This document shows positions 25,255 to 57,493 of a stretch of DNA of 64,000 bases, one piece after another. The stretch lies in contig CAUYUJ010000305.1 of the NCBI GenBank assembly GCA_963575745.1, positions 1-64,000 of the forward strand. The letters run 5' to 3'. The notes beneath the pieces are model-generated. The model had not been told where the DNA came from. It searched no databases and saw only the letters and a list, made by a program, of their open reading frames with translations. The translations under genes and the position numbers were made by a program. Source of the stretch: Prorocentrum cordatum (taxonomy: Eukaryota). The stretch's first letter is position 1. Each line of letters opens with the position of its first letter.

Positions 25255-25290
<36 letters not shown>

Positions 25291-25589: not shown

Positions 25590-25647
<58 letters not shown>

Positions 25648-25719: not shown

Positions 25720-25756
<37 letters not shown>

Positions 25757-25757
25757 C

Positions 25758-25821
<64 letters not shown>

Positions 25822-31498: not shown

Positions 31499-33509
31499 CT
31501 CGGGGCAGCGGCGGCGGAGGAGGAGGAGGAGGCGCAAGAGGAGGAGGAGGAGGAGGAGGAGGCGGAGGAGGAGGAGGCGGAGGAGGAGGAAGAGGCGCAA
31601 GAGTCCTCCTAGGTGGGGTCCGTGCAGATGGGGTCGGAGCATCGCCGCATCACCGCTACACCGCGGCGACGGCGACGCATCGGCGACGTCGTCGCGGAAA
31701 AAATCGGGCTCCGCTTCGACCCGTCTACTCGGACCCCATCCGGGAAGCCTGGAGCGGCGGCCACGGCGGCGGCCACGGCGGCGACGCTGGCAACGATAGG
31801 GCGACGAGATCCGTATCAGAACGAGGGGCCAGAATGGTCATTGACCTTGGGTGCGTGAATGGGGTTCCGCGATGCGGATTGTTGTCGCGTTGTTGCCGTC
31901 GTCTCGCTCGCAACGCGGCCCGCGACTCACCTCGCGACCCGCCCGCGACGCACCCGCAACCCACCCCGCGCACGACCCCTCACTCTTAACCGCAACTGCG
32001 GGGTGCTACATACACATATCCGCCACCGTGCCCCCTGGCACGTTGAGGCGTGGTGAAATGCCGAGAGCTGTCTGGCAAGGCTTCTTTCATCTTCTAAGGG
32101 ACCCCCCCCTGGGCCGCACCTCGCTGCGCGCACGGGCTATAGTCCGGGGGGGGTCCCTACGTGGCTATGGCGCATCCCTTGAGCTCTCCAAGGCTTCCAT
32201 GACGGCCCAGGAGGCCTCCAAGACGGTATATGAGGGCCCCGAGGCTCCGAGCGATCGCTCGAAGACGCCCAAAATGGCCTCAAGATGGCGCCAAAGGCTT
32301 CCAAGGCACCCGGAGAAGCCTCCAGGAGGCTACCAAGAGGGCCCCCAGATACAAAAATCTCTGATGTTCCTGAAGTTGTTGAAGGACTTGAGCGGTCTTG
32401 CCTTTTGGGCTTTCCGACGCTTTAGGACGGCCCAAGAGGCCACCAAAACCATTTCAAAACGGCCCAAGAGGCCTCCAAGAGAGCCCCAAGGCTGCCGAAA
32501 TGCGCCCCAAGACAGCCTAAGAGGCGCCCAAGACGGCGCCCCAACAGGGCTCCAAAACGGCCCCAAAAGGAGCCCCCAGGGAGCCCCCAGGGAGCCCCGA
32601 AGGGGCCACCAAGAGGCCCCCCAAAAGGCCCCCAGATGCCCCAGGGCCCCCAAGAGGCCCCCAAACGGCCCCCAAGAGGCATCAAAGCTGCCGCCAAAAA
32701 ACTCCCGAAAGGCCTCCAACGAGATCCCAACGAACATCCACTAGGCTTGCCGGAAGTAGCTGGATACCTGGTTACACACGTTCCGAAAACAGGGTTGCAC
32801 TTGGGGGTTCTGCTTCTCCTCTAACGAACTGGGCCGGTTGGTTGGTAGCTATGTTCCCGCCGTCGCCGCCCCGTCGCCACCCAGTCGCCGCCTCGTCGCC
32901 GCTGGTCGTTTGGGGCGGTTGGTCGATCTGGCGGTTATGTTCCTGCCGTCGCCGCTCCGTCGCAGCGTCGTTGCTGCCCGTCGTATGGGCCGTGTGGTCG
33001 GTCTGGCGGCTATGTTCCCGCCGTCGCCGCCCCGTCGCCGCCTCGTCGACGCCCGTCGTCTGGGCCGTGAGGTCGGTCTGGCGGCTATGTCCCGTCGTCG
33101 CCGCCCCGTCGCCACGTCGTCACCGCCCGTCGCCTGGGCCATGTTGCACATTGGAACCCAATCGGTTGCAATACAACCTCTTGCAACGCGATCGATTGCA
33201 ATCCTATCGAATGCACTCTGCTGCAATGCGTTGGTGCACCACATAGATTGCACCATATAGCTTACACGACAGCAATCCAATCGGTAGCAATCCAATCGAT
33301 TGCAGCTCGATCGGTTTCAATCGACTGCGTCGCATAGCTTCAACACATGGCGTACACCATATCTGATTACGGTGTCTCCTACCACATCGATTTGCCCACA
33401 TAGCTTACACCACGCAGCTCGCGTCACATGCGTCAGAACATTAATTTTTACCACACCCATGCATCATGTAGTTCGAACCGGATGGCTCACACCATAACAG
33501 TTGCACCAC

Positions 33510-39909: not shown

Positions 39910-40469
39910 TAAAGCCAAATCCGCTCGAAATCGGTCCACGGACCCCTCCTGGTGTCCACCGGGTGCCGTCTGTCACCCTGGGTCCGGTTCTGACTGTCCC
40001 CACGCCGCAAAACGGCCCCCAGTGATGGGCCCATTTCCGACTACCACTACCATAGGTAGGAGAGGGAGGAGGAGGAAGAGGAGGGGGAGGAGCAGGAGGA
40101 GGATGATGAGGACCTCCTTATCCTCCCTTCTTCCCCGTCTCACACATGGTAGTGGTGGTGGAAAGCTTGCCCATCACCCAGAGGCAAAAAGAGTCGAAAG
40201 CTCTGCCCGAGTTCAGCACCTCGAACCTGCCCGCCCCTCCTGCTGGCCAGAACCACTGCGTGGCCGCCTCCGACCCCCAGGGCGGCTCTCAGCGCCGCAG
40301 ACCTCGTCGGTCTTGCCACCGCTCGGATGCCCCTCCCCGTGCATTTGTCGCTATGCCGCGTGTCCTTTTTTGGGGTCTCGGGGATACAGGATGCTCCTCG
40401 ATGGTCCTCGCCGCGAAACAACTGCACACGCCCGATCGATGCCAAGCGGTGGGGCGGCGCGCGCGGGAG

Positions 40470-41303
40470 GGGGAGAAGGAGGAGGAGGAGGAGAGGGAGG
40501 AGGAGGAGGAGGAGGAGGAGGAGGAGGAGGAGGAGGAGGAGGAGGAGGAGGAGGAGGAGGAGGAGAGGAGGAGGAGGAGGAGGAGGAGGAGGAGGAGGAG
40601 GGAGGAGGAGGAGGAGGAGGGGGAGGAGGAGAAGGAGGAGGAGGAGAAGGCGGAGGAGGAGGAGGAGGAGGTAAAGGAGGAGGAGGAGGAGCCGGAGGAG
40701 AAGAAGGGGAGGAGGAGGAGAAGGAGGAGGAGGAGGAGGAGGAGGAGGAGGAGGAGGAGGAGGAGGATGGGAGGAGGAGGAGGAGGAGCAAGAGGAGCAA
40801 GAGGAGGGGAGAAGGAGAAGAAGGAGGAGAAGGAGAAGAAGGAGGAGGAGAAGGAGGAGGATTGGGAGGAGGAGAAGGAGGAGGAGGAGGAAGAGGAGGA
40901 GGATGAGGAGGAGGGGGGGGAGGGGGAGGGAGGATAGGAGGAGGAGAAGAGGAGGAGGAGGAGGAGGAGGAGGAGGAGGAGCAAGCGGAGGAGGAGGAGG
41001 AGGAGGAGGAGGAGGATGAGGGAGGAGGAGGAGGAGGAGGAGGAGGAGGAGGAGGGGGGGAGGAGGAGGAGGAGGAGGCGGGCGTAGGCCTCGCGCTGGT
41101 GGGCCTCGGCGATCCTCGCGACCGCGCTCTCCACCGCGCCGCGGAAGTCCTCCTCTGGGCCCCCCCGGCCCTGGCGCGGCCGCCTCCTCCTCTGGCTCGT
41201 GTTTCGCCTGCTCCCCCTCTTCCTCTTCCCCCCTCCAGGAGGGAGGGAGGAAGAGGGGGAGCAGATGAGGAGGGCAAGGTTCAGGAGGGGGAAAAAGCAT
41301 GGC

Positions 41304-43011: not shown

Positions 43012-43565
43012 CGGCCATTCCCCACCTCCTCCTCGAAGCTCGAGGCTGCGGCACGCCTCCCTCTCCGCCTGCTCCTCATCCTCCTCCTCCTCCTCCTCCT
43101 CCTCCTCCTCCTCTTCCTCCTCCTTCTGCTCCTCCTCCTCCTCCTCCTCCTCCTCCTCCTCCTCCTCCTCCTCCTCCTCCTCCTCCTGCTCCTCCTCCCG
43201 GAGGGGAGGTGGAAAGGAGGGCGGAGACTGTGGGAGGCGGGGAGATGGAGAGCGCGGGGGGGGGGCGGGAGGACGGTGGCCGAGGCGGGGAGGATGGACG
43301 GAGAGCGGCGGCGGGAGGCGGCGGGGAGGAAGGGCGGGGGGGGGGCGGAGGCAGGGAGGAGGCGGGAGGGAGGAAGAATGGGGCCCGGGGAGAGACGGAG
43401 CCAGGGTGGGGACACATCGAGGATCTCCGAGATCCAGCGGCCCTGAAGGATGCCCTGCGGGCGTGCCGCGGCCTCCTCGGAGCGCTCCGGAACGCTCTGG
43501 GAGCGCCCTGGAACGGATCGTTCCTCATCCTGGCCCCGTCCGACGGGCCTGCCTCGGGGGGTGGG

Positions 43566-43619
43566 GGAGGAGGAGGAGGAGGAGGAGGAGGAGGAGGAGG
43601 AGGAGGAGGAGGAGGAGGA
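43566..43619. repeat. Pure (GGA)18 microsatellite abutting the LINE 3' end
   Basis: 54 nt of uninterrupted GGA. Confidence 0.98.
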
Positions 43620-43659
43620 TCATGCTGGATCATGCTGCGATGCCACACACGTGGCCAGT

Positions 43660-46600
43660 TCAATCGCTGTCACCGCTATCATCACCACCGCTGCCCAACC
43701 CCTGCACACGAGCACCAGCGAGCACTGTCTGCCCCTGACCCTGGGCTCTGAGCTGGGCAGCGACTTCCTCAAGCTCATTCTCCTCATGCAAGCGAGCGGC
43801 AGCGGCAGCAAAAGCAGCAGCCGCGTCCTCGCCCACGGGTGGGGCGTCCTCGCAGACCGTCATCACGTCGGCCAGCTCTCCGACAGGGCGATCGGACGAG
43901 CGGGCCACATACTCATCAAAAATGGGCCTCTCCTCCATTGGCCTCACGGCACCACCCACGCCCCCAGTTCCTTCCCGAGGGGGTGGCGGGAGGGCTCGCG
44001 CAGCAACATCCAGCGCCGCCGCCTCACGCAAGGCCACGGGTGGGCCCCGATAAGACGGAAAAACACCCTTCTTAATTCGCTTGAGGTTTTCGCCCCCCTT
44101 TCGAGTGGGGGGGGCACACACTCTCTGAAGCCACCGACCGTCTGTCGTGGCTGTGAAACCACATCGCTGACAGAAGGTCAGCCCGAACGCACGCATCCTG
44201 GCGAGGCGGTGGCTGTGGTGAAGCTTCACAGCGCCAACCCACACCTCTCCCGAGATCGCCTCGAAACCCTCTCCAAACTCAGGGCTCAAACCCAGCGTTT
44301 CAGCCGAATCCGACGGCAGCGACGGGATCGGAACGCGGCACGGGGTCGAGGCGACAGCGAGCACCTGGCTCCTCGGGACAATCACCTTGCACACATCGCA
44401 ACGCCAGCGACCAGCGAACGGGCGAAACTTGTGCGCACTATCGCGGATCGCCTGGTCGAATTTAGTGGGCTTGCGGACCTTGGACGCTGGCGGAGCTCTG
44501 ACCCCTTCCCAAGGTTCAACCTCGAGCGCCAGCATCATCGCCCTTCTGGCCCTTCTACGCACCAGTGCCGCCGTCGTATCCCACAGGTCAGTCCGAGGGG
44601 GAGGGGCCACCACACACCAATCCCAGGACCACTGGGCCACCACCCCCGCATAGGCGTCGGCACTGGCGTTGCCCTGGCACATAAAAATATCAAACGGGGA
44701 AGTTACCGACTGCAGATTTTCCTCCGTGTGGGAGGGCGTCCAGAAAAGCGAAACCTCCCCAGGGCCACGGGGGCGGAGAGCCCGAGAAGCACGAACCCAC
44801 AAGTCCCCGTTCGGGCCCCGAGGGGAGGAGGCACGGCCACCGAGCCAATCAGAAAGCAAACTCTTGCAGTCGGTAATATAGCATGACGGACCTTGCGAGT
44901 GCTCAAGCGCGAGACAGAAGGCCTGGAGCTCTGCTCTAGGGACCGTTTGCCGACGGCCTGACAAAACCTGTCCTACACCGCACTGAGGCACCCAAGAATT
45001 AGGCGACGAGGGGTCCTGGCACATCATCACCACAGCCGAGCCGCGTCGCCTACGCCTGGGATCAGAGCTGAACTCGCCCCCAGATCCGTCACCGAAGATA
45101 AACACAGGAGGGCCTCCAGGCTCCGAGCAGAAATCGGCAATACAGCCATCCCCCAGAAGGACCTCCTGGGCCGTTTCCGCAGTCTCGACAAACCTAGGCA
45201 CCGTGAGGTCCTTCGAGGGCACTCCCCTGAGCCACAAGGCCGGCTGGGCCTCAAGGCCCGCGAGGGCCTGGGGGGTCAAAAAATCCGTTTTTGAAAAGTC
45301 TTCGTGTCCGCAATTGGCTGGGCATAGCCAAATGCGGTGAGCTAAAGTCTCAGGCTGCTCCTTACATCGGGGGCAAAGCGGCGGGCAGGAATATCCTGCG
45401 GCAATCTGCCGCTCACGAGTCCACTGGCCCCCCGAGATGACGGCAATGTCGGCGGCCCACTCGTCGAACTTGGACTTGGCAGCCAGGCGGTTCAGCTCAA
45501 TCTGCACCGTCGTCATGTCCGCTCCTGCTGCCAGATCCTCGCCCGCCCCATGGTGGGCCGCTTCCTTCCACTGCAGCTGAACACAATCATCCATGAAAGC
45601 GCCGAGCATATCCTGAAAATGCGAAGGAACAGCTGTAGCGAACTGCTCATCACCAAAAGCAGGAAACAGCCAATCATCGATCGTACCATCTGGCAAGGGA
45701 CGTGACCAGACATCAGGACTTTGCGGATCCCAGCCAATCTGCAAGAGCGTGGCCTGCACCGCGGCGATGGGGCCGCGCGCATCCTTCCACTTCACCACCT
45801 GTCGCTCAGCAGCGCCACGACGCAACTTCGCCAGTGTGATCGGCCACATCTTGCGAATGCGAGGATGGAGCATCGGCTGGGAAAGCCACAAAGCAATCCA
45901 CTCCTTAATCATCTGCTTCCTCAAATCTATGCCAGGATCAGGAACCCCAAACACAGCTTGTAATACAGAATTCAAACACCTGCCACGCTTCGTCCCAGCA
46001 ACACTCGCTGCAGCATCCCGCCTCGAAGCCAACAGAGAAGATGGAGGGGTGCCCATTATCTGATGGCCAAAGACTGCAGCAGGTAACACTCCAGTGGTGT
46101 AGAGCTTCTTGGTGATGAACCTGGTCTTGGGAAGCTGCCTCAATCGCATAACTTTTCGCTGCCGCCGTCGAGCCTGCGCACTTCGTTTCATCATCCGAGG
46201 CGCTGTCCGCCGTCGCCCTGCAGCAGCATCAGAGCCCAAGTCGACAGTGGAGCGCACGAACTGCACAGGGATACCTTTGCGAACCAGTCGACGCTGTAAC
46301 TCCACACCCATCTCATCAGAACTGGCGACAAGCTTCGTTTTGTTAGAAATCTTCAACCTGAGCTTCTTGAGCCCAGTGGCCATAGCGTCAGCAGAAGCGT
46401 CCAACTTATCAATCACCTGCTGCGTTTTGCCCTCCGCCCGACCGGCAATATCATCCACATAACTCCACAATCCAGTCGGGGGACAAGCACGGTGAACCTC
46501 ATCCAGCAACTGATGAAGCATAACTTTGGCGAGCGGAACGCCATGTCCAGAACCAGCGACGATCGAACGTGAAACCACCAAGGCGTCCGATATCATCTGG

Positions 46601-49068
46601 CCCTTCTTCAAAAGCCTGGGAGAAGAGTAAAGACCCACTTCCAATAAGAGGAAGATTGCTGGAAATCCGATGTTCAAGCCAGCCTGCATCAGCAACACGA
46701 AAGACACCGAGTCGTAGAACTTAGTGAGGTCCAAGAACAGTGTCGCATGCTCAAAAGACAAGGCGTTGGCGCCTTCATCCATCACAGCTCTGATCAGTGC
46801 CGCTCTGAGCGCTGAAGATCCAGCAATAGCAGTATCCCAAAATGCAGATTGGGCAGCTGACCATTCACCTGAGTGTTTCGCACGCACCTTAGACCATATT
46901 CTGTGCGGCGTCGGAGCCCGCCCCAACACTCTGTTGCCTCCAGCTTCCTTGGGAATCGCAGCGCCCAGGACCGAGCTGAGGGGCGACGGCCAGGCGCCAG
47001 CCTGCTCGATATTATTCAATATATCCACAAGACGCTGCCTTGCCACCAATGGCTGTCGCTGAATATCAATGGGGTTCAGCACGTCCACGCCCTTCGCCTT
47101 CGTCGCTGGCAGCGTGGGCAGCACAGCGTCCACGTCCATGATGGCGATAGCAGGAAGTGGGTCATCTCGAGCAGCTGACAGACACTGGCCCATCATATAC
47201 AAAATATCTGCAGGCTGATCGACAGGATCTCGCCACATCGCATTCCATTCAGAGGCAGACGTCTGGAGCATCGTCTGCTTGTCCGTGGTGATAGCACCTG
47301 CCGCGTCGCGGCCCTCCCACTCCAAGGGCGGAGCCTGCTTCGCATGCCGATGTACATCACCAGGCTTAGATGACCAGGACTCCTTCACCCACTTGACAAA
47401 GGACGAGCGCGAAGCTAACAAAGCCCGAGAAGTCGACAAGTCCGCCCACTTGCGCGCGGTGTCCACCAAGGAAGTGAGCTGGCCAACAGGGGCGCGATCC
47501 AAATCAGCAGCCATAGCTTTCCACAACTCAACCTCCTCAGCGGTGGACTTCTTGCCGAAGTACTCGACCGTCTTATCAGCAGGCAAGACTCCAATCCTGG
47601 CCTGTACTTCACGTGCACAGTAAGCAGCCTGATCAGGATCAGCACCATTAACACGGAGAGCCGCATGCCGAAACAACAAAGTGCTGACAACACCCCACCA
47701 CTCGGCCTGCTCGTTCTTCATGTGAGCGCGCCCAGGGGAGGAAGTGACCTTGGCCCAATAGCAAGCAGGGCCACGAGCACGACCTGAGAACTGCATCCAA
47801 GTACCGGCATCGACCTGCTCGTGAATCAAAGTGGCACGCTCCAATGTAGAAATCCAAGCTCCGTAAGACACATCCAGCCGAGCACGATCCTCAGGTTGCC
47901 ATTCAAAGACAAAGTGCTGACTGCGGTCGAAAGCTGCAACTTTGCCACGGGCACCCTCTGGCTCATCCTCAAACAGCTGGGGGAGGCCCTCCCAATGCAC
48001 CTGTGTCTGAGCTTCAAACCAAGTCTCCTCAGGAATGGCGAAAGACACAGTGGGCGCTGGCGGAGGCGCTGGCGGCTCCAGCTCGTCGAAGCCCTCCTGG
48101 AACTCGATGGGAAGCGCCTGCATGCGCCTCTGCCTCTGCTCTTCTCTCTTTTTAGACCGCTTACTCGCAGGATCAGCAACTGCAACGGGTCTATCACGAA
48201 CGGGAAGAGGCTCGGGCACTGCCAGGTGCCTATACCATCGCTGAGAACGGGCAGCCTTCACAGTAACAACCACTCCACAGTGTGTCTCCCATGGCACACG
48301 CAACTCAGCTCGAAGCGACAACTCTGGACAACCAACACTGGCAAGACCATAATCGTACATGCGCCCTGGCCCTTTGTCGCAGGTCGCTCGGCAGGACGGC
48401 GTCACCGCGACGGCGCCGAGCTTCTGGGGCCAACCAGTGCCTCGCAAGGCCGCGGGCTCGATGTTCCAGTCCGCCATCGCCAGCCAGGGGTCCGCGAGCG
48501 CGCGCGTGAAAGCCCCCAGCGCCACCAGCGCGTCATGGTTCCAGCCCTTCACGCCGAGGCCTGGCTGGAGGTAGGCAGCGATCAGGATCAAGTTGCCGCC
48601 CCTGGCGTGGATCACCGTCGGCGCGAAGCCACGGCAAGGGTCCAGGCGCCCAGCAGCGAGCGCCGTACGCCGAGCACTCTCAAAGCTCGACGTCGCCACA
48701 TGTTTCTTCGCCAGAATCCACTCGCCACCAGACAAGCCAGCCACTGACTTGCCCGAAGGGCGGGCGGCCGTGTAAGCCAAACGCCAGCCGTCTTTATCAA
48801 TCGCCTGGCAGATGTCTGGCATGTCCTTCTCTCCTTCGTGTGTCTCAACTAGGGCCACGATGCTGCGCTCCTGCTCCTGGGCTGAGAAACGCGCAGCCTG
48901 CGGGCCCCGCTCCGTGATGTTGCCGAAAAAGATGTCCAAGGACGTGTCGTCATCAGACTCTGGATGAGGTACGCCTGCAGCTCCCCCCCTGCAGGACGGG
49001 GGGCGAGCCGTGCTAAACACGGCCTGCGCCAGCACCAGCAGCCGCAACGCCCTTGCCAGCGCCCGCAT
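43660..49068 (-). CDS. LINE ORF2 polyprotein: APE/EEP endonuclease, reverse transcriptase, CCHC zinc finger, RNase H, C-terminal Cys/His knuckles (start uncertain: in-frame ATGs include 49068, 49101 and 50043)
   Basis: APE motifs GNI, LVETH, GG, AAY, MADWN, YDYGL, WETH (~48940-48260). RT motifs KAKGVD, IPKEAGGNR, LFLDLTKFYD, SIVAG, YVDD (46450-46461), DLG. Finger CPRC-x8-H-x4-C (~45320-45375). RNase H motifs FGDGS, QTVPRAEL, ITDC, PSH, GNASAD (~45100-44650). Knuckles H..RWRCDVC and H..FCQRC..C. No internal stops. Confidence 0.95.
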   Translation of the reverse strand: MRALARALRLLVLAQAVFSTARPPSCRGGAAGVPHPESDDDTSLDIFFGNITERGPQAARFSAQEQERSIVALVETHEGEKDMPDICQAIDKDGWRLAYTAARPSGKSVAGLSGGEWILAKKHVATSSFESARRTALAAGRLDPCRGFAPTVIHARGGNLILIAAYLQPGLGVKGWNHDALVALGAFTRALADPWLAMADWNIEPAALRGTGWPQKLGAVAVTPSCRATCDKGPGRMYDYGLASVGCPELSLRAELRVPWETHCGVVVTVKAARSQRWYRHLAVPEPLPVRDRPVAVADPASKRSKKREEQRQRRMQALPIEFQEGFDELEPPAPPPAPTVSFAIPEETWFEAQTQVHWEGLPQLFEDEPEGARGKVAAFDRSQHFVFEWQPEDRARLDVSYGAWISTLERATLIHEQVDAGTWMQFSGRARGPACYWAKVTSSPGRAHMKNEQAEWWGVVSTLLFRHAALRVNGADPDQAAYCAREVQARIGVLPADKTVEYFGKKSTAEEVELWKAMAADLDRAPVGQLTSLVDTARKWADLSTSRALLASRSSFVKWVKESWSSKPGDVHRHAKQAPPLEWEGRDAAGAITTDKQTMLQTSASEWNAMWRDPVDQPADILYMMGQCLSAARDDPLPAIAIMDVDAVLPTLPATKAKGVDVLNPIDIQRQPLVARQRLVDILNNIEQAGAWPSPLSSVLGAAIPKEAGGNRVLGRAPTPHRIWSKVRAKHSGEWSAAQSAFWDTAIAGSSALRAALIRAVMDEGANALSFEHATLFLDLTKFYDSVSFVLLMQAGLNIGFPAIFLLLEVGLYSSPRLLKKGQMISDALVVSRSIVAGSGHGVPLAKVMLHQLLDEVHRACPPTGLWSYVDDIAGRAEGKTQQVIDKLDASADAMATGLKKLRLKISNKTKLVASSDEMGVELQRRLVRKGIPVQFVRSTVDLGSDAAAGRRRTAPRMMKRSAQARRRQRKVMRLRQLPKTRFITKKLYTTGVLPAAVFGHQIMGTPPSSLLASRRDAAASVAGTKRGRCLNSVLQAVFGVPDPGIDLRKQMIKEWIALWLSQPMLHPRIRKMWPITLAKLRRGAAERQVVKWKDARGPIAAVQATLLQIGWDPQSPDVWSRPLPDGTIDDWLFPAFGDEQFATAVPSHFQDMLGAFMDDCVQLQWKEAAHHGAGEDLAAGADMTTVQIELNRLAAKSKFDEWAADIAVISGGQWTRERQIAAGYSCPPLCPRCKEQPETLAHRIWLCPANCGHEDFSKTDFLTPQALAGLEAQPALWLRGVPSKDLTVPRFVETAETAQEVLLGDGCIADFCSEPGGPPVFIFGDGSGGEFSSDPRRRRRGSAVVMMCQDPSSPNSWVPQCGVGQVLSGRRQTVPRAELQAFCLALEHSQGPSCYITDCKSLLSDWLGGRASSPRGPNGDLWVRASRALRPRGPGEVSLFWTPSHTEENLQSVTSPFDIFMCQGNASADAYAGVVAQWSWDWCVVAPPPRTDLWDTTAALVRRRARRAMMLALEVEPWEGVRAPPASKVRKPTKFDQAIRDSAHKFRPFAGRWRCDVCKVIVPRSQVLAVASTPCRVPIPSLPSDSAETLGLSPEFGEGFEAISGEVWVGAVKLHHSHRLARMRAFGLTFCQRCGFTATTDGRWLQRVCAPPTRKGGENLKRIKKGVFPSYRGPPVALREAAALDVAARALPPPPREGTGGVGGAVRPMEERPIFDEYVARSSDRPVGELADVMTVCEDAPPVGEDAAAAFAAAAARLHEENELEEVAAQLRAQGQGQTVLAGARVQGLGSGGDDSGDSD

Positions 49069-50053
49069 TGCCGCCTTTGCCAGCGCCAGCGGCCTTGCCA
49101 TCAGCGGCCGCACGCGCCTGCGCCTGGGCGCAGCTCTTGATGCGCTCCAGCATGGCCTTCTGGTCGCTCTCCTGCACCACGACCTTCGCCTTGCTGGGCC
49201 CAGCAGCGGCAGCAGCGGCGCCGGGCGCCGCAGCGGCGCAGCACGCCGCGGGCGTGCCTTCGGCGCCGCCGCCAGCAACGGCCTCGCCATCGGCGCCGCG
49301 CTTGCGCCGCTTGGCCGCCGCCGCCGTGTGCGCCGACCTCGTGCGCTCCAGCAAGTCCTGGAACTCCTTCTGCTTGGCGTCGACCAGCTGGGTGACCTCC
49401 TCCAGCTGCTTCTGGAAATGCTCAAGCGCCTGCCTGTCGGACTCCTCCAGCTCATCGAGGCACTCGAACAGCCCAGGGTCCAGGACGAAGCCCGACTGCT
49501 TGGTGGCCGCCTCGGGCGGGTTCGCCGCCTCCTGCACCTCCAGACGGTGCAGATCGGCGGCCAAGACAGCGTCCGCCGCCTCGTCGAACTTGGCCTGGTC
49601 CTTCTCAAGCTGGAGGCGGGACTGCTCCAGCTTCTTCGCGGCCTTCTCCAAAGCCTCCTGCTTGCGAGAGCAATCCGCCGTAGCCTCCTTGAGCAGAGCA
49701 TGCTGGGGCTTGGGCGGCGGCGCAGGGGCCGCCGCGAGCTTCTGGGACGCCAGGGTGCTGAACTCCGTCGCAAGGCGCGCCGCGTCTGGGTCCCCATCGA
49801 GACCTGCACCAGCGAGAGCCTTCGACAGGTAGTCCCCGAAGTTGGCGAGAGACGGCTGAGACTGCCCATGGTCATGCCATCCACCGCCCGAGGACCACGG
49901 CGCCCACCACGTGCCGCTCGTCGTAGTACTCCATCCTGGCTGAGGGGTATTGCAGACTGCGCACACCCCTTTCTGCTTCTTGAGCCTCCAATTCCACGCC
50001 CAGTTGCCACACTGCACGCAAGTGGAGAAACCCTGCTTGCCATACTTGACCAT
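49013..50053 (-). CDS. LINE ORF1 protein (346 aa from the ATG at 50053): N-terminal C4 zinc finger, coiled coil, basic NLS-like patch, Ala/Gly-rich tail
   Basis: MVKYGKQ start; CVQC-x15-CAVC; heptad-like segments KQEALEKAAKKLEQSRLQLEKDQAKFDEA and EHFQKQLEEVTQLVDAKQKEFQDLLE; AKRRKR. Lies between the SL/5' UTR and ORF2; TAG stop at 49015-49013. Confidence 0.88.
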   Translation of the reverse strand: MVKYGKQGFSTCVQCGNWAWNWRLKKQKGVCAVCNTPQPGWSTTTSGTWWAPWSSGGGWHDHGQSQPSLANFGDYLSKALAGAGLDGDPDAARLATEFSTLASQKLAAAPAPPPKPQHALLKEATADCSRKQEALEKAAKKLEQSRLQLEKDQAKFDEAADAVLAADLHRLEVQEAANPPEAATKQSGFVLDPGLFECLDELEESDRQALEHFQKQLEEVTQLVDAKQKEFQDLLERTRSAHTAAAAKRRKRGADGEAVAGGGAEGTPAACCAAAAPGAAAAAAGPSKAKVVVQESDQKAMLERIKSCAQAQARAAADGKAAGAGKGGNAGAGKGVAAAGAGAGRV

Positions 50054-50177
50054 CCGCTCCTGCAGGAGCTCACAAAGTATGCTCCGACAGGAGCTCACAA
50101 AAGCACTTCAGACTGGCTCGGGAGACAGAGCTATCCCAGTTTGGCACGGAGGCGCGGAGCCCCCTCGGTGCATCAGC

Positions 50178-50199
50178 CTTGAGCCAAAATGGCTACGGA
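50178..50199 (-). other. Dinoflagellate spliced leader (DinoSL), full-length 22-nt genomic copy
   Basis: Plus strand CTTGAGCCAAAATGGCTACGGA = minus strand TCCGTAGCCATTTTGGCTCAAG, a 22/22 match to the established DinoSL DCCGTAGCCATTTTGGCTCAAG. It is followed by the LINE 5' UTR rather than a recognisable SL-RNA intron. Confidence 0.97.
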
Positions 50200-50200
50200 A

Positions 50201-50317
50201 GGAGGAGGAGGAGGAGGAGGAGGAGGAGGAGGAGGAGGAGGAGGAGGAGGAGGAGGAGGAGGAGGAGGAGGAGGAGGAGGAGGAGGAGGAGGAGGAGGAG
50301 GAGGAGGAGGAGGAGGA
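50201..50317. repeat. Pure (GGA)39 microsatellite abutting the LINE 5' end and SL
   Basis: 117 nt of uninterrupted GGA. Confidence 0.98.
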
Positions 50318-50444: not shown

Positions 50445-52410
50445 CTGGGAGGCCGCCGGGTCCGGCGGGCAGGGCGGGCGGCGGGAGGGTGAGAGGGAGA
50501 CGCGTTGCGGAAGCCTATCGGCTGCACGCAAGAGTGACCCTGGGTAAGAGTGACCTTTGGTGCGCGGCTTTCTGGGGGCCAACGGGGGAACAAGCCTGGG
50601 CGCGCAAGCTGCTGCTCCTGCTTCGGTTTCAGCCATCTGGGGACCCATCTGTGCCCGCACCAAAGGTCACTCTGGCGAAAGGTCACTCTTACGTCTAGTC
50701 GAGCCTAGGGCAGAAAACCATCTCTCAGAGCATAGTGGGCCCGGCGCGACCCCAATGAGGGGGAAGCTTCCTGGTGCTGCAAGGGCGCCGTGCTTGGCAT
50801 GGCTTGGCACTGCTTGGCAGTGCATGGAGGGCCCCAAGACGGCCCAGGGAGGCTCCCAAGACGGCTCCCGAACGCGGCAAGAGTGCCAGGAACGGCGCAA
50901 GATAGCCAAAGAGGCCCCCAAGAAGCACCCAAAGGTCCCCAAGAGGCCCAAGGAGGCCCCCACGAGGCCTCCAAGAGGCCCCCAGGAAGCTCCGAGGAGG
51001 CCCCAAGAGTGATCCAAGAAACTCCCAAAAGGTCTCACCATCCTTCTCATCCTCCTTGTTCCTGCCAACCTCGTCCTCCTCTTCTTCCCCCGCGTGCTCC
51101 CCGAAGGGCTTCCACAACGGCTGGGCGAACGCATGGGTCGATAGCTTGGCCAATCTTTGCCCACGCGTTTGGCCGCATAGGCGAACCCCAAAAAGGCAGG
51201 GAGCGGCGGTGATTCTTCGCAGGCGCCGTTGAGAAACATTAGACAACTCTGCGGTCTGCGCGGGATTCTCCGATCGGCGCTGGACCCTCTCCCTGGCGCG
51301 CGGGGCGCGCCAGGGGGCGGGGGGGGCTCCAGTCGGAGACATCTGCGCAGGCCTCCTTGCACTTCTTGAAGGGTCCCTGGGACACACAAAGAAATACACA
51401 CAAATAACAGGATTCCCCATATGTTCCCATGTGTTCTGGGTTCTTGTCTTCCCCCCCACTTCCCATAGTCTCCCATCTTGTTCTAAGAATCGTAATTGTG
51501 TCTGCGTGCTCGTTCCCCTCCTGGCTGATGATGTCACTGGTTGCTCCCCGAGTGGGGGAGCAGCAGCCCGGACCCCCCGACGCCATGATTTTGTCCCAGC
51601 CATCCTGTGGTCCTTTTCTGAGGAGACAGCGCCCCGCCTCTCCCCGCCCCGCCTCTCCTCGCCTCCTCCCCCTCCCCCCGTTCCTCCCTCCTCCCCCTCC
51701 TCCGCGCCTCTCCTCTCCTCTCCTCTCCTCTCCTCTCCTCTCCACTCCTCTCCTTTTTTCCTCCTCCCCTCCCCTCCTCCCCCCTCCCCCTCATCCACCA
51801 TCAGCGCCTCTCCTCTCCTCTCCTCTCCTCTCCTCTCCTCTCCTCTCCTCTCCTCTCCTCTCCTCTCCTCCTTTTCCTCCTCCCCCTTCTCCCTCCTCCC
51901 CCTCCTCCCACCATCAGCAAACCGAAGGCCCCAGTGGCAGGGCTCGCATGCACTTCCACCCTCATCTCGTAGCACCCCTCACACGGTTCGTGGCCCCAGA
52001 GGGGGGCTCCGACGAAGGCCCCAGCGGCAGGATTCGCATGCACTTTCACCCTCATTGCGGCGCACCCCTCACACGTTTCGTGGCCCCATAGGGAGCTCCA
52101 TCGAATGCATCAGTGGCAGAGTTCGTATGCAGTTCCGCCCTCATTTCGGCGCACCCCTCACACGGCTCGTGGACACATGGAGCTCCATCGAAGGCCCCAG
52201 TGGCAGGATTCGCGTGCAGCTCCACCTTCATTTCGGCGCACCCCTCACACGGTTCGTGGCCCCATAGGGAGCTGCACCGAAGACCACAGCAGCAGGGTTC
52301 GCATGCAGTTCCTCCCCCATTTCGGCGCACCCCTCACACGGTCCGTAGCTACATAGGGAGCTCCACCGAAGGCCACATTGGCAGGGTTCGCATGCATTTC
52401 CACCCTCATT

Positions 52411-53806
52411 CCCAACCATCCTGTGGTGTTGGGTCTTCGTTTTGAAGAGACGGTGGCCCGCGTCTCCTCTCCTCCTCTCCTCCTCCCCCTCCTCCTTGCG
52501 TTTCACCCACCCAGCACAGCGTTTCGTAGCCCCATAAGGAGCTCCACCGAAGGCGCCAGTGGCAGGGTTCGCATGGCGGCCTCGGGCCATTTCGGCACAC
52601 CCCTCTCGAGGATCGTGGCCCCATAGGGAGCTCCACCGAAGGCTCCACTGGCAGGGTTCGCATGGCGGCCTCGGGCCGGGCCATTTCGGCACACCCTTCT
52701 CGAGGATCGTAGACTCATAAGGGAGCTCCACCGAAGGCCCTAGTGGCAGGGTTCGCATGGCGGCCTCGGGCCATTTCGGCACACCCCTCACGAGGATCGT
52801 GGCCCCATAGGGAGCTCCACCGAAGGCCCAGTGGCAGGGTTCGCATGGCGGCCTCGGGCCATTTCGGCACACCCCTCACGAGGATCGTGGCCCCATAGGG
52901 AGCTCCACCGAAGGCGCCAGTGGCAGGGTTCGCATGGCGGCATCGGGCCATTTCGGCACACCCCTCACGAGGATCGTGGCCCCATAGGAAGCTCCACCGA
53001 AGGCCCTAGCGGCAGGGTTCGCATGGCGGCCTCGGGCCATTTCGGCACACCCCTCACGAGGATCGTGGCCCCATAGGGAGCTCCACCGACTGCCCCCAGT
53101 GGCAGGGTTCGCATGGCGGCCTTGGGCCATTTCGGCACACCCCTCACGAGGATCGTGGCCCCATAGGGGGCTCCGCCGAAGGCCCCCAGTGGCAGGGTTC
53201 GCACGGCGGCCTCGGGCCATTTCGGCACACCCCTCACGACGATCGTGGCTCCACAGGGAGCTCCACCGAAGGCGCCAGTGGCAGGGTTCGCATGGCGGCC
53301 TCGGGCCATGTCGGCGCACCCCTCACGAGGATCGCGGCCCCATAGGGAGCTCCACCGAAGGCCCCAGTGGCAGGGTTCGCATGGCGGCTTCGGGCCATTT
53401 CGGCACACCCCTCACGAGGACCGTGGCCCTACTGCAGCTCCACCGAAGGCGCCAATGGCAGGGTTCGCATGGCGGCCCCGGGCCATTTCGGCACACCCCT
53501 CACGAGGATCGTGGCCCCATAGTTGCGCTGCTTCAACAACCGCGCCTGGGCGTCGTACTCCGCCTTGTCGACGTGCAACGCCACCTCCACCCTCATGGCT
53601 CTCAAGGCCCTTTCCTGCTTCTGCTCCTCGGTGAGAGGGACGCCGTCCTTGTCGTCGTCGGCGCCCGCGAAGACGGCCACGAACGTGTCCCTGAGCATGT
53701 CGGGCTCCGGCGGGAAGCCGTGGCCACATAGGGAGCGCGGGCGAAGATGGTATTCACAATTGCGGTATTCACAACTGCATATGGTTGGGTCCTTCGCCAG
53801 GATAAG
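52411..53806 (+). mobile_element. Non-autonomous Helentron/HINE-like element with ~11 copies of an ~89-bp tandem repeat, nested in a related element
   Basis: Left terminus CCCAACCAT follows TT. Its inverted copy ATGGTTGGG is subterminal (53781-53789), followed by hairpin TCCT-TCGCC-AGGA and TAAG|TTTT. There is a CT-rich tract and a central array. It splits an outer repeat unit at CACCCTCATT|TTTTGCGCACCCCTC with no clear TSD. Confidence 0.6.
53522..53719 (-). pseudogene. Unique coding-like fragment inside the tandem array, possibly from a Helitron Rep/helicase N-terminal (DUF6570-like) region
   Basis: Stop-free minus-strand translation GFPPEPDMLRDTFVAVFAG...EVALHVDKAEYDAQARLLKQRNY with GC3-rich codons. 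Flanked on both sides by GTGGCC(C/A)CATAG from the repeat unit. Family assignment is from memory of the motif pattern only. Confidence 0.4.
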
Positions 53807-55325
53807 TTTTGCGCACCCCTCACACGGTTCGTGGCCCCATAGGCCCATAGGGAGCTCCACCGAATGCATCAGTGGCAGGTCTCGTATGCAGTTCCACCCT
53901 CATTTCGGCGCACCCCTCACACGTTTCGTGGCCACATGGGGAGCTCCACCGAAGGCTCCAGAGGCAAGGATCGCATGCAGTTCGACCCTTATGTCGGCGC
54001 ACCCCTCACACGGTTCATGACCCCATAGGGAGCTCCGACAAAGGCCCCAGCGGCAAGGTTCGCATGCACCTTCGCCCTCATTTCGGTGCCCCTCTCACAC
54101 GGCTCGTGGCCCCAAAGGGGCTCCACCGAAGGCCCCAGTGGCAGGGCTCGCATGCAGTTCCACCCTCATTCCGGCACACCCCTCACTCGTCTCGTGGAAC
54201 CATTGGGAGTCCGCCGAAGGCCTCAGTGGCAGGCCTCGCATGCCGTTCCACCCCCATTTCGGCACACCCCTCGCTACGGCACCCACATAATTATGCACAT
54301 GATTGGTCTCTTCGCCAGGCTAATTCGGAACGTCGACCCTGGAGATCGCAACCCATTTTGAAGGCCTGGGAATGGGCACCAACACCAAGACAGGGGGCTG
54401 CCTCCACGGGGGGGAGATAATCCTAGATTTCGATGTTGGTGGTAATATTTCGGCCGCCTTGGAAGCCAGAGTATTACCACCATCACCGAGATCGGGATCT
54501 TTCTTCCCTCGGTGGAGGAACACCGCCGATATTGGTGTTGGTGTCAATCTCTAGGCCTGCGACCGTTCCCAAAATACCGGTTATTCATCCTGAGTCGTTG
54601 CTTGACGCTCCCGAGGCCCTGTGAGGGCCTCCTGCGGGCGAGGGCAACAAAAAGCCGCCCGCTGCGGCTGATTCCGGACCTGGGGGGGCCTGGGAGGGGG
54701 AAGGGGGAGAGGCACGGGGAACAACTATTAAGAGGCAACTACTAGGAGGTCTTCGTCCGAAGGATTAGGATGGATTAAGCCTCCATTTAGAGTAAGCCGG
54801 ACTAAGCCGGATGAAGCGGAATTAAGCCAGATTTCGGACCAGGACAAAATCAGAATTTGATCTCCCAGGAGTTGCATCCGAAGGGGAAGGGGGAGAGGCA
54901 CGGGGAACACCTGGGAGCGACGCGAAGGCGTTTTCCTGCCATCCGACGGGCTCAGGGGGCGCTCCCCGGGCGCAGCTGCCGGCTGGCCCCCCAGCAGCAG
55001 GGCCATGGCGCCGTCGTCGCAGCCCCGGAGGCGCTGGCCGCCGCCGGCGCGGCAGGCGGGCAGCTGCTCGGACACGTCCCGGCCGTTCCAGAGGACGCGC
55101 CACCTGAACGACGGAGAGCAGACCTGTCTGACGCGAGATGACATGGCGACCTCACGCTGCGGCTTCCGCGGGCCGCCGGCGCGGCACGCTTCATTGGAGA
55201 CGAGGGCGCTCACGCGCGACCTCACGCGGGGGAACTGACGCGCCAATGTCGGCGCAGCCGAACCCAATGTCGACGCAGCCGACTGTATTTCGGTGGCAAC
55301 TCCAGGGAACAAAATAAAGCGACAT

Positions 55326-55461: not shown

Positions 55462-57493
55462 CAACATATTATGGATCATGATTATGAATTTTGTTCTTAT
55501 TCGATCATGGGAGCCTCACGTGGCATCTTGTTGGCCGTTGCGTATCGACGCAGGTCGATTTTAATCGACGCTAACTCGCGGCTAATCGACGCGATTCCAC
55601 GAAAGATCGGCGCTATCCAATCGATCACCCGACGCTGATCAACGCTAAGGCACTGCAGAGACGGAATAGCGAGGGTGTGACCACAAGGCTCCCATGAGTT
55701 GCTACCGAATTGCAGTGGGATGTGATTATGTTTGGGTGTCCCGCCCCACTCCCTGGCGTGCACTGTCCTTACACGTTTTCGGCTCCAGGGTTTCGTCCGC
55801 CTGGACGGCGCAGCGCTCAGCAGCAGTTGGGCGCTCGAGTTCCTTCAGATGACGATCCTGGGAGCCTTTTATTGTCACTTTGGCTTTCCTGCGATGCGCC
55901 TCCAGTGGGTCACAGTCGCTTGCTGGCGCCACTGGAAGCAACATGGGTGCCTCTGGAGGCCACTGGAGGCCGCAGGGGGTCACCGGAGGAGCCACTGGAG
56001 CCGCTCGAGGCTCGCGGGGGTCACTGGTGTCCCCTGGTGGCCCCTTGGGCAGACCGACGATTCAGGCTGCTCAGACTTGCCCTTACGCTACGAGCGCTGC
56101 ACCCTCCTCCGTCGCCCCAGAGATCCGCCGACCCTGTCGGCGTGTGGAACCCCTGTCGGCGTGCGCTCAGTCGACACAGCCGTTGTCCTCTTGCCCTGCG
56201 TCTCCGTCGGCCCCTTTCCCTGCACCCTCCTCTTCAAGCCTGCCAGCGAGAGAAAACCGTAGCAACGTCGTAAAGAAGTCGAAGGGAAGCCCCTTCCCTT
56301 TGATCCCTCCCCCGCCGAGTGGGGGGAGGGGGTCCTGGGGGGGGTCATATACGCATCCTCCCCTGGGCGTCCGGGAGCCCCCCAAAGCGCCAAGACGCGC
56401 CAAGAGGGCCCCAAGCAGGCCCAAGAAGAGGACCACGAACCAACATTTCGAGCTTCCCGCCCCAAGAAGCCCCCGGAAGGCCCCAAGAGCCCCTCAAGGG
56501 GCCCGAAGAGGCCCCCAAGAGACACCCAAGAGGCCCAACAGAGGCCCCAACAGGCCCGAAAACATCCAAGAGGCCTTTCAACCACAATCCCAGCACGGTG
56601 GCGGGAAGGGCCGCAGGCCACGAGGCTCCCTGTCTGTCTCTGCTACGACTTCCTCGGCCCACATGGGGAACATCTCCTTCGCCTTCTCCTGCTCCCTTCC
56701 ACCTTCATCCCCCTCCTCCTCCTCCTCCTCCTCCTCCTCCTCCTCCTCCTCGTCCTCCTCGTATTCGGCGTCGTCGTCTTCAGGGTCGGCGGCACCGGCC
56801 GTAAGGCTTTAGCACTACAGATCGCGCTCGCTGCCCCTCAGCGAGCTGCAAAGTCCTTGCCACTTGGAGCAGGAAATAAATCCTTTAAACCTTCTTCCGT
56901 CGGCGACGAGGCAGAGGCAGCCCGCAACAGCGTGGAGCTCATCGGGGAAGTCGATGGCAGCTTGTCCAGCGTGCAAGAGAGAAACAGAGAGAGAGAGAGA
57001 GGCGAAGACGAGGGCGGCCGCGCGAAGGGAGGAGGAGGGAGCCCCAGAGACTCAGATCGCGCTCGCTGCCCCTCAGCGAGCTTCAACGTCCCTGCCCGCT
57101 GTGGAGCAGGACATTCCTCCTTGAATAGGGGGAAAACAAACCTACCTCGCTTTTGACCACCCTCGCTTCCAAGAGATACCAAACGATGCCAAATTGCAGC
57201 CTGTACTGGTCAGGCCGCTTGACGAGGAGACGCGTGGTATGGCTTGGTTTTGCCTGGAAGCGAAAGCGGGGTAGGTAATTCACGCTCTGGTCGAAGCGCC
57301 CGCCGCCTGGAGCCGCCGCCTGGCGCCAGCCACCTCTCCACCTGACCGGCGCGTGGAGAACGGACCCCTCCGGGGGGCTGCCCTCGCAGCTCCTCTCCCG
57401 GGCTCGAGACCCGGGAAGAGAAGCGCCTGCCTCGCTGACTTGAAGTCTGGCAGGTCTCCTTGCATGGCGTTCGGGCGCCCCCTTCTTTCGGCG

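What the first reader, a model, noticed from the sequence alone, without database searches (positions are those of the whole stretch)
43566..50317. LINE bounded by (TCC)n on both sides with no poly(A): probable microsatellite-targeted insertion
Seen: the 3' end reads TGA-ACTGGCCACGTGTGTGGCATCGC-AGCATGATCC-AGCATGA-(TCC)18, and the 5' side reads (TCC)39-T-TCCGTAGCC. Both tracts are pure, unlike most GAG tracts in the window. The SL begins with TCC and the 3' decamer repeat ends in TCC, giving microhomology to the target at both ends. Established: APE-type elements such as Waldo/Mino, Kibi/Koshi and SART/TRAS target simple repeats. Inference: the endonuclease or an RNA (UCC)n tail directs TPRT into (GGA)n. 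This orientation also places a long pyrimidine tract directly before the SL AG acceptors, which could couple targeting to re-trans-splicing. Caveats: this is a single insertion in a GAG-rich region, and any TSD is hidden in the repeat.
Basis: partly seen in the sequence, partly recalled or inferred. Interest (0 to 1): 0.8.

Follow-up and report, generated by a model that had tools for sequence, protein, structure and literature searches.

The report
Spliced-leader LINE inside a TCC microsatellite
An intact jumping gene in a dinoflagellate genome starts with the cell's own mRNA leader, has no poly(A) tail and sits inside a pure TCC simple repeat, and related elements and ordinary retro-copied genes in marine DNA sit the same way, which suggests a copying machinery that homes to simple repeats.

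Summary
A 6,580-bp non-LTR retrotransposon lies on the minus strand at 43620-50199. It begins with a perfect 22-nt dinoflagellate spliced leader, carries intact ORF1 and ORF2 (APE, RT, CCHC, RNase H), and has no poly(A). It is bounded by pure (TCC)39 at the 5' end and pure (TCC)18 at the 3' end.

I could not see other copies of this family: no genome is held, and read contigs break at the repeats. I therefore scanned metagenome contigs for a leader abutted by a trinucleotide repeat in either orientation. Of 42 loci, 14 had (TCC)n upstream and 1 had (GGA)n; 18 had (TCA)n and 0 had (TGA)n. The junction was mostly in phase with the leader's own TCC.

Six loci carried the same repeat again, in the same orientation, downstream of the leader, with no poly(A) before it. 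One (TCC)n locus is a LINE related to the window's ORF2. Another is a ribosomal L28e retrogene.

Best reading (0.65): repeat-homing target-primed reverse transcription, a new variant of the known microsatellite-specific LINEs. The re-trans-splicing idea is untested and is not needed to explain the data.

The parts
50201..50317 (-). 5' flanking microsatellite, (TCC)39 on the element's sense strand, 100% pure
50200..50200 (-). one extra T between the repeat and the leader (junction out of phase by one base; also seen in L018)
50178..50199 (-). complete 22-nt dinoflagellate spliced leader (TCCGTAGCCATTTTGGCTCAAG) as the exact 5' end of the element; no relict leader behind it
   Evidence: the 22-nt DinoSL is described in the abstract of PMC6050394
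50054..50177 (-). 5' UTR
49013..50053 (-). ORF1, 346 aa: N-terminal CxxC...CxxC motif, coiled-coil-like middle, Ala/Gly-rich end
   Evidence: the same N-terminal motif occurs in ORF1 of L004/L037, L006 and L025/L042
43660..50043 (-). ORF2 reading frame, open for 2,127 codons. It is the +1 frame of ORF1 and is stop-free across all of ORF1. There is no ATG between the ORF1 stop and the endonuclease domain
48124..48990 (-). apurinic/apyrimidinic-type endonuclease domain (ORF2 residues 352-640)
   Evidence: AlphaFold model with mean pLDDT 64.9. Foldseek matches AP endonucleases at E about 1e-9, with the TRAS1 endonuclease at rank 9. Pfam Exo_endo_phos in 2 of 9 aligned relatives and in L037
46324..46953 (-). 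reverse transcriptase domain (Pfam RVT_1, residues 1031-1240; YVDD at 1195-1198)
   Evidence: the family profile hits R2 and L1 ORF2p structures
45322..45375 (-). CxxC-x8-H-x4-C zinc motif behind the RT
   Evidence: read from the sequence
44647..45099 (-). RNase H domain (acidic-residue motifs DGSG, AEL, TDC, ADA)
   Evidence: retroviral RNase H structures, E 1e-5; Pfam RNase_H in 4 of 9 relatives
43620..43659 (-). 40-nt 3' UTR: a 5-bp hairpin GCCAC/GTGGC, then the decamer AGCATGATCC twice, the second copy running into the repeat; no poly(A)
   Evidence: the fold is no better than shuffles (z +2.06)
43566..43619 (-). 3' flanking microsatellite or tail, (TCC)18, 100% pure

Best explanation
This is a young, apparently intact APE-type LINE that was copied from a spliced-leader-capped RNA and integrated into a (TCC)n/(GGA)n microsatellite by target-primed reverse transcription. 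Proposed steps (inferred): (1) The source copy also sits in (TCC)n, and its transcript runs into the downstream repeat, so the RNA ends in (UCC)n instead of poly(A). (2) The endonuclease nicks the (GGA)n strand of another TCC tract. (3) The freed ...GGA-3' end pairs with the (UCC)n tail and primes cDNA synthesis, so the 3' tract is part target and part copied tail. (4) At the RNA's 5' end, the cDNA ends in the complement of the leader's first three bases (UCC). This pairs with the (TCC)n top strand and fixes the 5' joint, usually in phase; here one extra base lies between. Any target-site duplication is hidden in the repeat. Shown: the anatomy, the lack of poly(A), the fixed orientation, the phase bias in relatives, and the same repeat on both sides of relatives. 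Inferred: the read-through tail, and which component (endonuclease or tail pairing) sets the specificity.
For: This copy: pure (TCC)39 and (TCC)18 abut both ends and there is no poly(A). About 0.7% is expected by chance from the window background. Relatives came from a metagenome scan that accepted either orientation of TCC, TCA or GCA repeats next to the leader (42 loci, classified). The counts were (TCC)n 14 against (GGA)n 1, (TCA)n 18 against (TGA)n 0, (GCA)n 2 against (TGC)n 0, and 7 with no repeat. With duplicate loci dropped this is 32 of 33, p = 4e-9 against 50:50 and p = 0.006 against an 80:20 strand bias. The junction is in phase with the leader's TCC in 8 of 14 TCC loci and 12 of 18 TCA loci. 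Pooled, that is 20 of 32 against 1/3, p = 7e-4; with duplicates dropped it is 18 of 30, p = 0.002. The same repeat in the same orientation lies downstream of the leader, with no poly(A) before it, in 6 of the 34 repeat-headed loci (L005, L008, L018, L028, L030, L038). None of them has the complementary or another scanned repeat type downstream. L037 (with its 88%-identical relative L004) is a (TCC)n-headed LINE whose endonuclease-to-RT region matches the profile of the window's ORF2 family at E 8.7e-27 and is 29% identical to it. ORF1 with the same N-terminal CxxC...CxxC motif and the same overlapping-frame layout occurs in the (TCC)n loci L006, L025/L042 and L004/L037. Two earlier notes on this genome (e1-7625585, e1-7625186) report other leader-headed LINEs inside TCC repeats. 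These are leads only.
Against: No second copy of this family could be examined. No genome is held, there is no other copy in the window, and the read contigs are cut at both repeats. The window is GGA-rich with about a 4:1 strand bias in the observed direction. The metagenome loci were selected for a repeat next to the leader. I could therefore measure only orientation, phase and the downstream repeat, not how enriched repeats are among all leader sites; the baseline attempt sampled a different kind of DNA. One locus (L012) has the opposite orientation. The window copy's 5' joint is one base out of phase. A tail-only older insertion upstream cannot be told from a target repeat. Earlier notes on this genome describe other leader-headed LINEs with ordinary target-site duplications, so repeat homing is not general.
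Confidence: 0.65

Rival explanations
1. The 3' (TCC)18 is simply the element's own simple-repeat tail, as in CR1, L2, RTE or Rex1-type LINEs. The element has no target preference. The 5' (TCC)39 is an older tail-only or severely truncated insertion, or an unrelated repeat of this GGA-rich region.
For: The 3' UTR is very short, with a small hairpin and a tandem decamer running into the repeat, which resembles tail-dependent LINEs (recalled). A tail-only insert cannot be distinguished from a microsatellite. The region holds many GGA arrays.
Against: The element's 3' end motif (AGCATGA) is not present upstream of the (TCC)39. In relatives the same repeat abuts the leader itself in 34 of 35 repeat-flanked loci, in phase more often than chance. 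The sequences upstream of the repeat are unrelated: a satellite in L015, and no ORF2 profile hit upstream in any locus. The hairpin is no more stable than shuffles.
Confidence: 0.17
2. Endonuclease-independent capture: polypurine/polypyrimidine repeats are fragile or form unusual DNA structures, and the cDNA was patched into a pre-existing break in the repeat.
For: (GGA)n/(TCC)n is a mirror polypurine tract (established knowledge). No target-site duplication is visible.
Against: The same fixed orientation and in-phase joints are seen for (TCA)n and (GCA)n, which are not polypurine tracts. The endonuclease domain folds as an AP endonuclease and the frame is intact. Break capture would not fix the orientation.
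Confidence: 0.08
3. Chance: a random insertion that happened to fall in one of the many GGA tracts of this region.
For: It is a single copy. GGA/TCC-type arrays cover about 2% of the window.
Against: Chance gives about 0.7% for position and orientation together. The pattern also recurs in unrelated contigs and, as leads, in two other windows of this genome.
Confidence: 0.05
4. The repeats grew after insertion, by slippage from the TCC at the start of the leader and the TCC ending the 3' decamer.
For: Both tracts are 100% pure and start at element-borne TCC triplets.
Against: One triplet is far below the length at which slippage expands repeats (established knowledge). The (TCA)n and (GCA)n flanks of other retrocopies cannot have grown from the leader's TCC. 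The extra T separates the leader's TCC from the 5' tract.
Confidence: 0.03

Closest known systems
Microsatellite-specific APE-type LINEs: Kibi (TC)n and Koshi (TTC)n; Waldo (ACAY)n and Mino (AC)n (Kojima and Fujiwara 2003, 2004, as summarised in PMC3812793, passages read). PMC4640811 (passages read) places most target-specific APE LINEs in the Tx1 and R1 clades. The assignment of each named element to a clade is recalled.
   Same: An APE endonuclease plus RT element bounded on both sides by one simple repeat in one orientation, with the duplication hidden in the repeat. The mechanism of targeting is unresolved for those elements too (PMC3812793).
   Different: The target (TCC)n is not among the listed targets. 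The host is a dinoflagellate. The 5' end is a host spliced leader whose first three bases match the target. ORF2 carries an RNase H domain. Clade membership was not tested.
LINEs with simple-repeat 3' tails in place of poly(A) (CR1, L2, RTE, Rex1 types; recalled)
   Same: No poly(A); a short 3' UTR ending in tandem short repeats that probably pair with the primer.
   Different: Those elements are not reported to sit with the same repeat at their 5' end. Here and in relatives the repeat abuts the 5' leader as well.
DinoSL-tagged retrocopies ('recycled' processed cDNAs) of dinoflagellates (PMC6050394, abstract and passages read; Slamovits and Keeling 2008 as cited there)
   Same: A DNA copy of the complete 22-nt leader at the exact 5' end. 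Retrogenes with the same flanks were found: Ribosomal_L28e in L030 and a protein kinase in L035.
   Different: This one is an autonomous LINE, not a host gene. Neither the passages I read nor my searches mention repeat flanks or missing poly(A) for such retrocopies.
R1-clade telomeric-repeat LINEs TRAS and SART (the TRAS1 endonuclease structure 1WDU appears; the biology is recalled)
   Same: APE-type elements that insert in one orientation into a short tandem repeat. The endonuclease model matches 1WDU with a TM-score of 0.67 normalised to the target.
   Different: Their target is the telomeric repeat, and they carry poly(A) (SART) or a defined end (TRAS). The structural match here is no closer than to cellular AP endonucleases, so it says nothing about clade.

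Membership tests
Microsatellite-specific APE-type LINEs (Kibi/Koshi, Waldo/Mino kind) | ORF2 with an APE-type endonuclease and a reverse transcriptase | tested here: met
   RVT_1 (E 5e-6, below the Pfam cutoff); RVT_1 in 9 of 9 aligned relatives. The endonuclease model matches AP endonucleases at E about 1e-9.
Microsatellite-specific APE-type LINEs (Kibi/Koshi, Waldo/Mino kind) | Copies bounded on both sides by the same simple repeat, in a fixed orientation | tested here: inconclusive
   Met for this copy. Met in relatives and other leader-headed retrocopies: 14 against 1 for orientation, and both sides in L030 and L018. Other copies of this same family could not be seen.
Microsatellite-specific APE-type LINEs (Kibi/Koshi, Waldo/Mino kind) | RT phylogeny inside the Tx1 or R1 clade | not tested
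   No reference LINE sequences were on hand. The PDB profile search hits R2 and L1 ORF2p about equally weakly.
Microsatellite-specific APE-type LINEs (Kibi/Koshi, Waldo/Mino kind) | The endonuclease cleaves the repeat specifically | not testable with these tools
   Needs a nicking assay.
Simple-repeat-tailed LINEs (CR1, L2, RTE, Rex1 kind) | 3' end of short tandem repeats instead of poly(A) | tested here: met
   (TCC)18 directly follows the 40-nt 3' UTR and there is no A-run.
Simple-repeat-tailed LINEs (CR1, L2, RTE, Rex1 kind) | A conserved 3' stem-loop used for recognition | tested here: inconclusive
   A 5-bp hairpin is predicted, but the fold is weaker than shuffles (z +2.06). No family alignment was available to test covariation.
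Simple-repeat-tailed LINEs (CR1, L2, RTE, Rex1 kind) | 5' flank unrelated to the tail (no target preference) | tested here: not met
   The 5' flank is the same repeat, as in 14 metagenome loci.
DinoSL-tagged retrocopies | Complete or relict 22-nt leader encoded in DNA at the 5' end of the copy | tested here: met
   Perfect match at 50178-50199, unique in the window.
Spliced-leader-gene-targeting LINEs (CRE/SLACS/CZAR, NeSL; leader exons are named as LINE targets in PMC4640811) | The element interrupts a leader exon (leader parts on both sides) and encodes a restriction-like endonuclease | tested here: not met
   The whole leader lies at the 5' end only, and no leader remainder follows the 3' repeat. 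The endonuclease is APE-type.

The most novel reading that the evidence does not exclude
Specificity is carried by the RNA, not by the protein. Any leader-capped transcript that reads into a downstream trinucleotide repeat gains a tail that pairs with nicks in the same kind of repeat elsewhere. The leader's own UCC then closes the 5' joint. Repeat type ((TCC)n, (TCA)n or (GCA)n) would thus be inherited from locus to locus, by LINEs and by host mRNAs alike. This repeat-homing machinery would be a main engine of the mass retroposition of dinoflagellate genes.
Probability: 0.25. Interest if true: 0.8.

Novelty: new variant of a known kind. Interest (0 to 1): 0.6.

Why it matters
Dinoflagellate genomes are full of retro-copied genes that carry the spliced leader, but the machinery and its insertion rules are not described in the papers I could search. 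This finding ties an intact LINE to a specific landing site, with the leader itself taking part in the 5' joint. The same signature appears on a ribosomal-protein retrogene and a kinase retrogene. That gives a concrete, countable prediction for any dinoflagellate assembly: retrocopies flanked on both sides by one repeat type, in one orientation, without poly(A). It also adds (TCC)n, and possibly (TCA)n and (GCA)n, to the short list of microsatellite targets of LINEs, and does so outside animals.

Tried and rejected
- **Own genome:** none is held.
- **Other copies in the window:** blastn of the element against the window found only itself. The leader occurs once.
- **Close relatives by protein:** a scan of viral contigs and of metagenome contigs with the 2,127-aa frame found none.
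- **Sequencing runs:** 9 runs were listed and no RNA holder was listed, so nothing can be said about a (UCC)n versus poly(A) tail on the RNA.
- **Laying contigs of 4 runs:**
At the tool's own suggestion I asked for 43300-50225.
  - The element is multi-copy in run X1: 375 contigs laid, of which 106 are at least 99% alike.
  - Contigs are cut at 43552-43629 and 50191-50225, so no flanks of other copies were seen.
  - The right flank was outside the stretch, so an empty-site joint could not have appeared.
  - A loose end in X6 at 50172 keeps the leader followed by G, which is uninformative.
- **Baseline for leader sites:** a plain-leader scan of viral contigs gave 134 unique sites, 0 of them next to a repeat. 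Nearly all lie in 21%-GC giant-virus-bin contigs, so this set is not a control for nuclear retrocopies.
- **3' UTR structure:** it is no more stable than shuffles.
- **Solved structures, single sequence:** no hit. Only the family profile gave hits.
- **Clade assignment:** not possible without reference LINE sequences.
- **Insertion into a spliced-leader gene:** rejected, because the whole leader is on one side only and the endonuclease is APE-type.
- **L008 ORF:** Pfam found nothing, so I give it no name. The DnaJ match of L038 is below the Pfam cutoff.
Full report
**Observation.** Read on the minus strand, the window shows the following:
- (TCC)39 at 50317..50201
- one extra T at 50200
- the 22-nt sequence TCCGTAGCCATTTTGGCTCAAG at 50199..50178
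- a 6.5-kb body
- the stop codon TGA at 43662..43660
- a 40-nt 3' UTR reading ACTGGCCACGTGTGTGGCATCGC-AGCATGATCC-AGCATGA
- (TCC)18 at 43619..43566

There is no A-run at the 3' end. Tandem Repeats Finder scores both tracts at 100% matches, against 74-94% for the other GGA/CTC-type arrays of the window. The 21-nt core of the leader occurs once in the window and in none of 100 shuffles. It is the dinoflagellate spliced leader, the 22-nt DinoSL added to all mRNAs (PMC6050394, abstract).

**Anatomy.**
- ORF1 (50053..49013, 346 aa) has an N-terminal CxxC...CxxC motif and a coiled-coil-like middle part.
- The ORF2 frame is open for 2,127 codons, from 50043 to 43660.
- Pfam sees only a weak RVT_1 in ORF2 (E 5e-6).
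- In an alignment with eight homologues, six of which a source names as Prorocentrum cordatum proteins, RVT_1 is found in 9 of 9 members, RNase_H in 4 of 9 and Exo_endo_phos in 2 of 9.
- The family profile hits retroviral RNase H, R2 and L1 ORF2p structures.
- A model of residues 352-640 (mean pLDDT 64.9) matches AP endonucleases at Foldseek E about 1e-9, with the TRAS1 endonuclease at rank 9.
- The YVDD motif, a CxxC-x8-H-x4-C motif and the RNase H acidic motifs are intact.

The element is therefore a full-length, apparently functional APE-type LINE. The pure flanking repeats, the perfect leader, and read contigs at least 99% identical (106 of the 375 laid from run X1) all suggest that it is young.

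**Chance.** Outside the element and its tracts, perfect (GGA)>=4 runs cover 1.10% of the window and (TCC)>=4 runs cover 0.36%. Landing inside such a run with TCC on the sense strand has a chance of about 0.7%. The two flanking tracts are the longest (39 units) and third-longest (18 units) perfect runs in the window; the longest other run has 23 units. However, the window has 31 GGA against 8 TCC perfect runs on the + strand, so the orientation of this one copy is weak evidence.

**Other copies of the same family.**
- No genome is held.
- The window has no second copy.
- Protein-guided scans of the viral and metagenome collections found no close relative.
- Public runs do hold the family: X1 holds 59% of its sampled words, and marine and estuary metagenomes hold 6-23%.
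- Their contigs are cut at both repeats, so no flanks were seen.

**Relatives.** I used the last metagenome scan for a design with a built-in control. The pattern was the leader followed, within 0-5 bases, by four triplets written KSM. This accepts TCC and GGA, TCA and TGA, and GCA and TGC equally, in any phase. It returned 42 loci. On the leader's sense strand the flank was as follows:

| Upstream flank | Loci | Complementary repeat | Loci |
|---|---|---|---|
| (TCC)n | 14 | (GGA)n | 1 (L012) |
| (TCA)n | 18 | (TGA)n | 0 |
| (GCA)n | 2 | (TGC)n | 0 |
| no real repeat | 7 | | |

- *Orientation.* After dropping duplicates of one locus or family copy (L015 = L031; L026 is about the same as L038), 32 of 33 loci share one orientation. 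That gives p = 4e-9 against 50:50 and p = 0.006 even against an assumed 80:20 strand bias.
- *Phase.* The joint is in phase with the leader's own first bases, that is (TCC)n-TCCGTAG or (TCA)n-TCCGTAG, in 8 of 14 and 12 of 18 loci. Pooled, 20 of 32 against 1/3 gives p = 7e-4. With duplicates dropped, 18 of 30 gives p = 0.002. The window copy and L018 have one extra T.
- *Downstream repeat.* This feature was not selected for. In 6 of the 34 repeat-headed loci (L005, L008, L018, L028, L030, L038) the same repeat in the same orientation lies downstream of the leader. No poly(A) precedes it, although L008 has a 7-base A-run there. No locus shows the complementary or another scanned repeat type downstream.
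- *L023.* This (TCA)n-headed locus has Pfam APE and RT domains. It ends about 5.07 kb downstream at a degenerate TCA-like tract, followed by a second leader-like head.

**What the loci encode.**
- L037 is (TCC)n-headed, and L004 is an 88%-identical relative. L037 is a LINE whose endonuclease-to-RT region matches the profile of the window's ORF2 family at E 8.7e-27 and is 29% identical to the window's ORF2.
- L006, L025/L042 and L004/L037 share the ORF1 N-terminal zinc motif with the window's ORF1. They also share the layout of two long overlapping frames.
- Host genes occur too. L030 is a Ribosomal_L28e retrogene (E 2e-21) lying between (TCC)9 and (TCC)19. L035 is a protein kinase retrogene behind (TCA)n.

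So (TCC)n flanks are found on at least two divergent LINE families of one broader lineage, and also on retro-copied host mRNAs.

**Mechanism.** The simplest account is target-primed reverse transcription into the repeat. The cDNA strand is the window's + strand, so the primer is a (GGA)n 3' end, and it can pair with a (UCC)n tail on the RNA. Such a tail would arise if transcripts of a copy sitting in (TCC)n read into the downstream repeat. This would also explain why the host-gene retrocopies in these loci lack poly(A). At the other end, the cDNA finishes with the complement of the leader's UCC. That can pair with the (TCC)n top strand, which explains the phase bias. All of these steps are inferred. 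Whether the endonuclease itself prefers the repeat is unknown. The tandem decamer AGCATGATCC at the 3' end may record a re-priming slip; this is speculation.

It was not tested and is not needed, because (TCA)n and (GCA)n behave alike. This copy has no relict leader.

**Rivals.**
- *Tail only.* An element-borne tail plus an unrelated or tail-only upstream tract remains possible for this single copy. It does not explain the in-phase repeat-to-leader joints in unrelated contexts.
- *Break capture.* Capture at fragile repeats would not fix the orientation, and it does not fit (TCA)n.
- *Chance.* About 0.7% for this copy, and the pattern recurs elsewhere.
- *Growth after insertion.* Expansion from single TCC triplets cannot give (TCA)n flanks.

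**Comparison with known systems.** The element works like the microsatellite-specific APE-type LINEs. PMC3812793 (passages) lists Waldo on (ACAY)n, Mino on (AC)n, Kibi on (TC)n and Koshi on (TTC)n, and it states that their targeting mechanism is not well understood. PMC4640811 (passages) says that target-specific APE LINEs lie mostly in the Tx1 and R1 clades. Membership in those clades was not tested here.

The differences are a new target, a dinoflagellate host, a host leader as the 5' end that matches the target, and an RNase H domain. The element also fits the DinoSL retrocopy class (PMC6050394). My searches found no paper that links DinoSL retrogenes to microsatellites (0 papers) or that describes repeat-targeting LINEs in dinoflagellates (2 papers, judged off-topic from title and abstract; listings only, apart from the passages cited). 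Supplements were not consulted. Earlier notes of this scan report two more leader-headed LINEs inside TCC repeats in this genome. I treat these as leads.

**Verdict.** The core interpretation is supported by independent loci but not yet by a census of the family. The element is a new variant of a known kind.

Noticed in passing
window 49013-50053 (-); L037, L006, L025, L036, L016: The ORF2 frame (+1 relative to ORF1) has no stop codon across the whole of ORF1 and starts with an ATG 10 nt after the ORF1 ATG. Codon shuffles of ORF1 expect 4.1 stops (0.8% of shuffles have none). Five related metagenome elements show the same: 0 stops against 3.5-8.2 expected, with at most 1.8% of shuffles doing as well in each. 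In L011 the +2 frame is the open one instead, and L010/L018 do not show the effect in the +1 frame. This suggests selection for an overlapping frame, through leaky scanning or frameshifting into ORF2.
   Followed up: partly
L043 onward (viral contigs): The plain leader occurs at 134 unique sites in contigs of median GC 21%, most of them binned as giant-virus genomes. In most it sits directly behind an AT-rich, often near-identical stretch of about 45 nt. At 100 sites an ATG-started ORF of 120 aa or more follows within 0-192 nt. Pfam on 40 of these ORFs gave no family for 29; the rest were DUF4116 (3), RING (2), CCCH (2), NADAR, ABC transporter and a weak Fez1. This may be a virus or an AT-rich parasite whose genes start with a DNA-encoded dinoflagellate leader. 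A literature listing showed no title or abstract on this, and no paper was read.
   Followed up: partly
L001-L042 (metagenome contigs): Leader-headed retrocopies behind (TCA)n (18 loci) and (GCA)n (2 loci) include a LINE with Pfam APE and RT domains that is not detectably related to the window's ORF2 (L023) and a protein kinase retrogene (L035). Several carry relict leaders directly after the full one (L001, L019, L024, L035).
   Followed up: partly
window 43465-43505: A 41-bp piece of the 3' flank is very high-copy in the laid runs: word depth 170 in X1 and 1,439 in X6 for its bin, against about 17-113 for X1 over the element. Loose ends lie on both sides of it. It is probably part of an abundant short repeat.
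   Followed up: no
window 7115-9817, 24191-25951, 40466-41078: Very long degenerate trinucleotide arrays: (TAG) about 896 copies, (GTA) about 586 copies and (GGA) about 206 copies, at 71-84% matches.
   Followed up: no
window 32463-32680, 50909-51009, 56460-56557; L015/L031 upstream of the repeat: Arrays of an 11-mer of the CCCAAGAGGCC type recur in the window. A similar motif lies just upstream of the (TCC)n-leader joint in metagenome loci L015/L031, which hints that those contigs come from a related organism.
   Followed up: no
window 49203 (ORF1 Ala-rich region): A contig of run X1 lacks 27 bases here, and a contig of X6 has a 3-base insertion at 49239. These are in-frame length variants of ORF1 among copies.
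   Followed up: no
window 51921-53522 and 53844-54280: An 89-bp satellite with 18 and 5 copies and higher-order periods of 358 and 446 bp.
   Followed up: no
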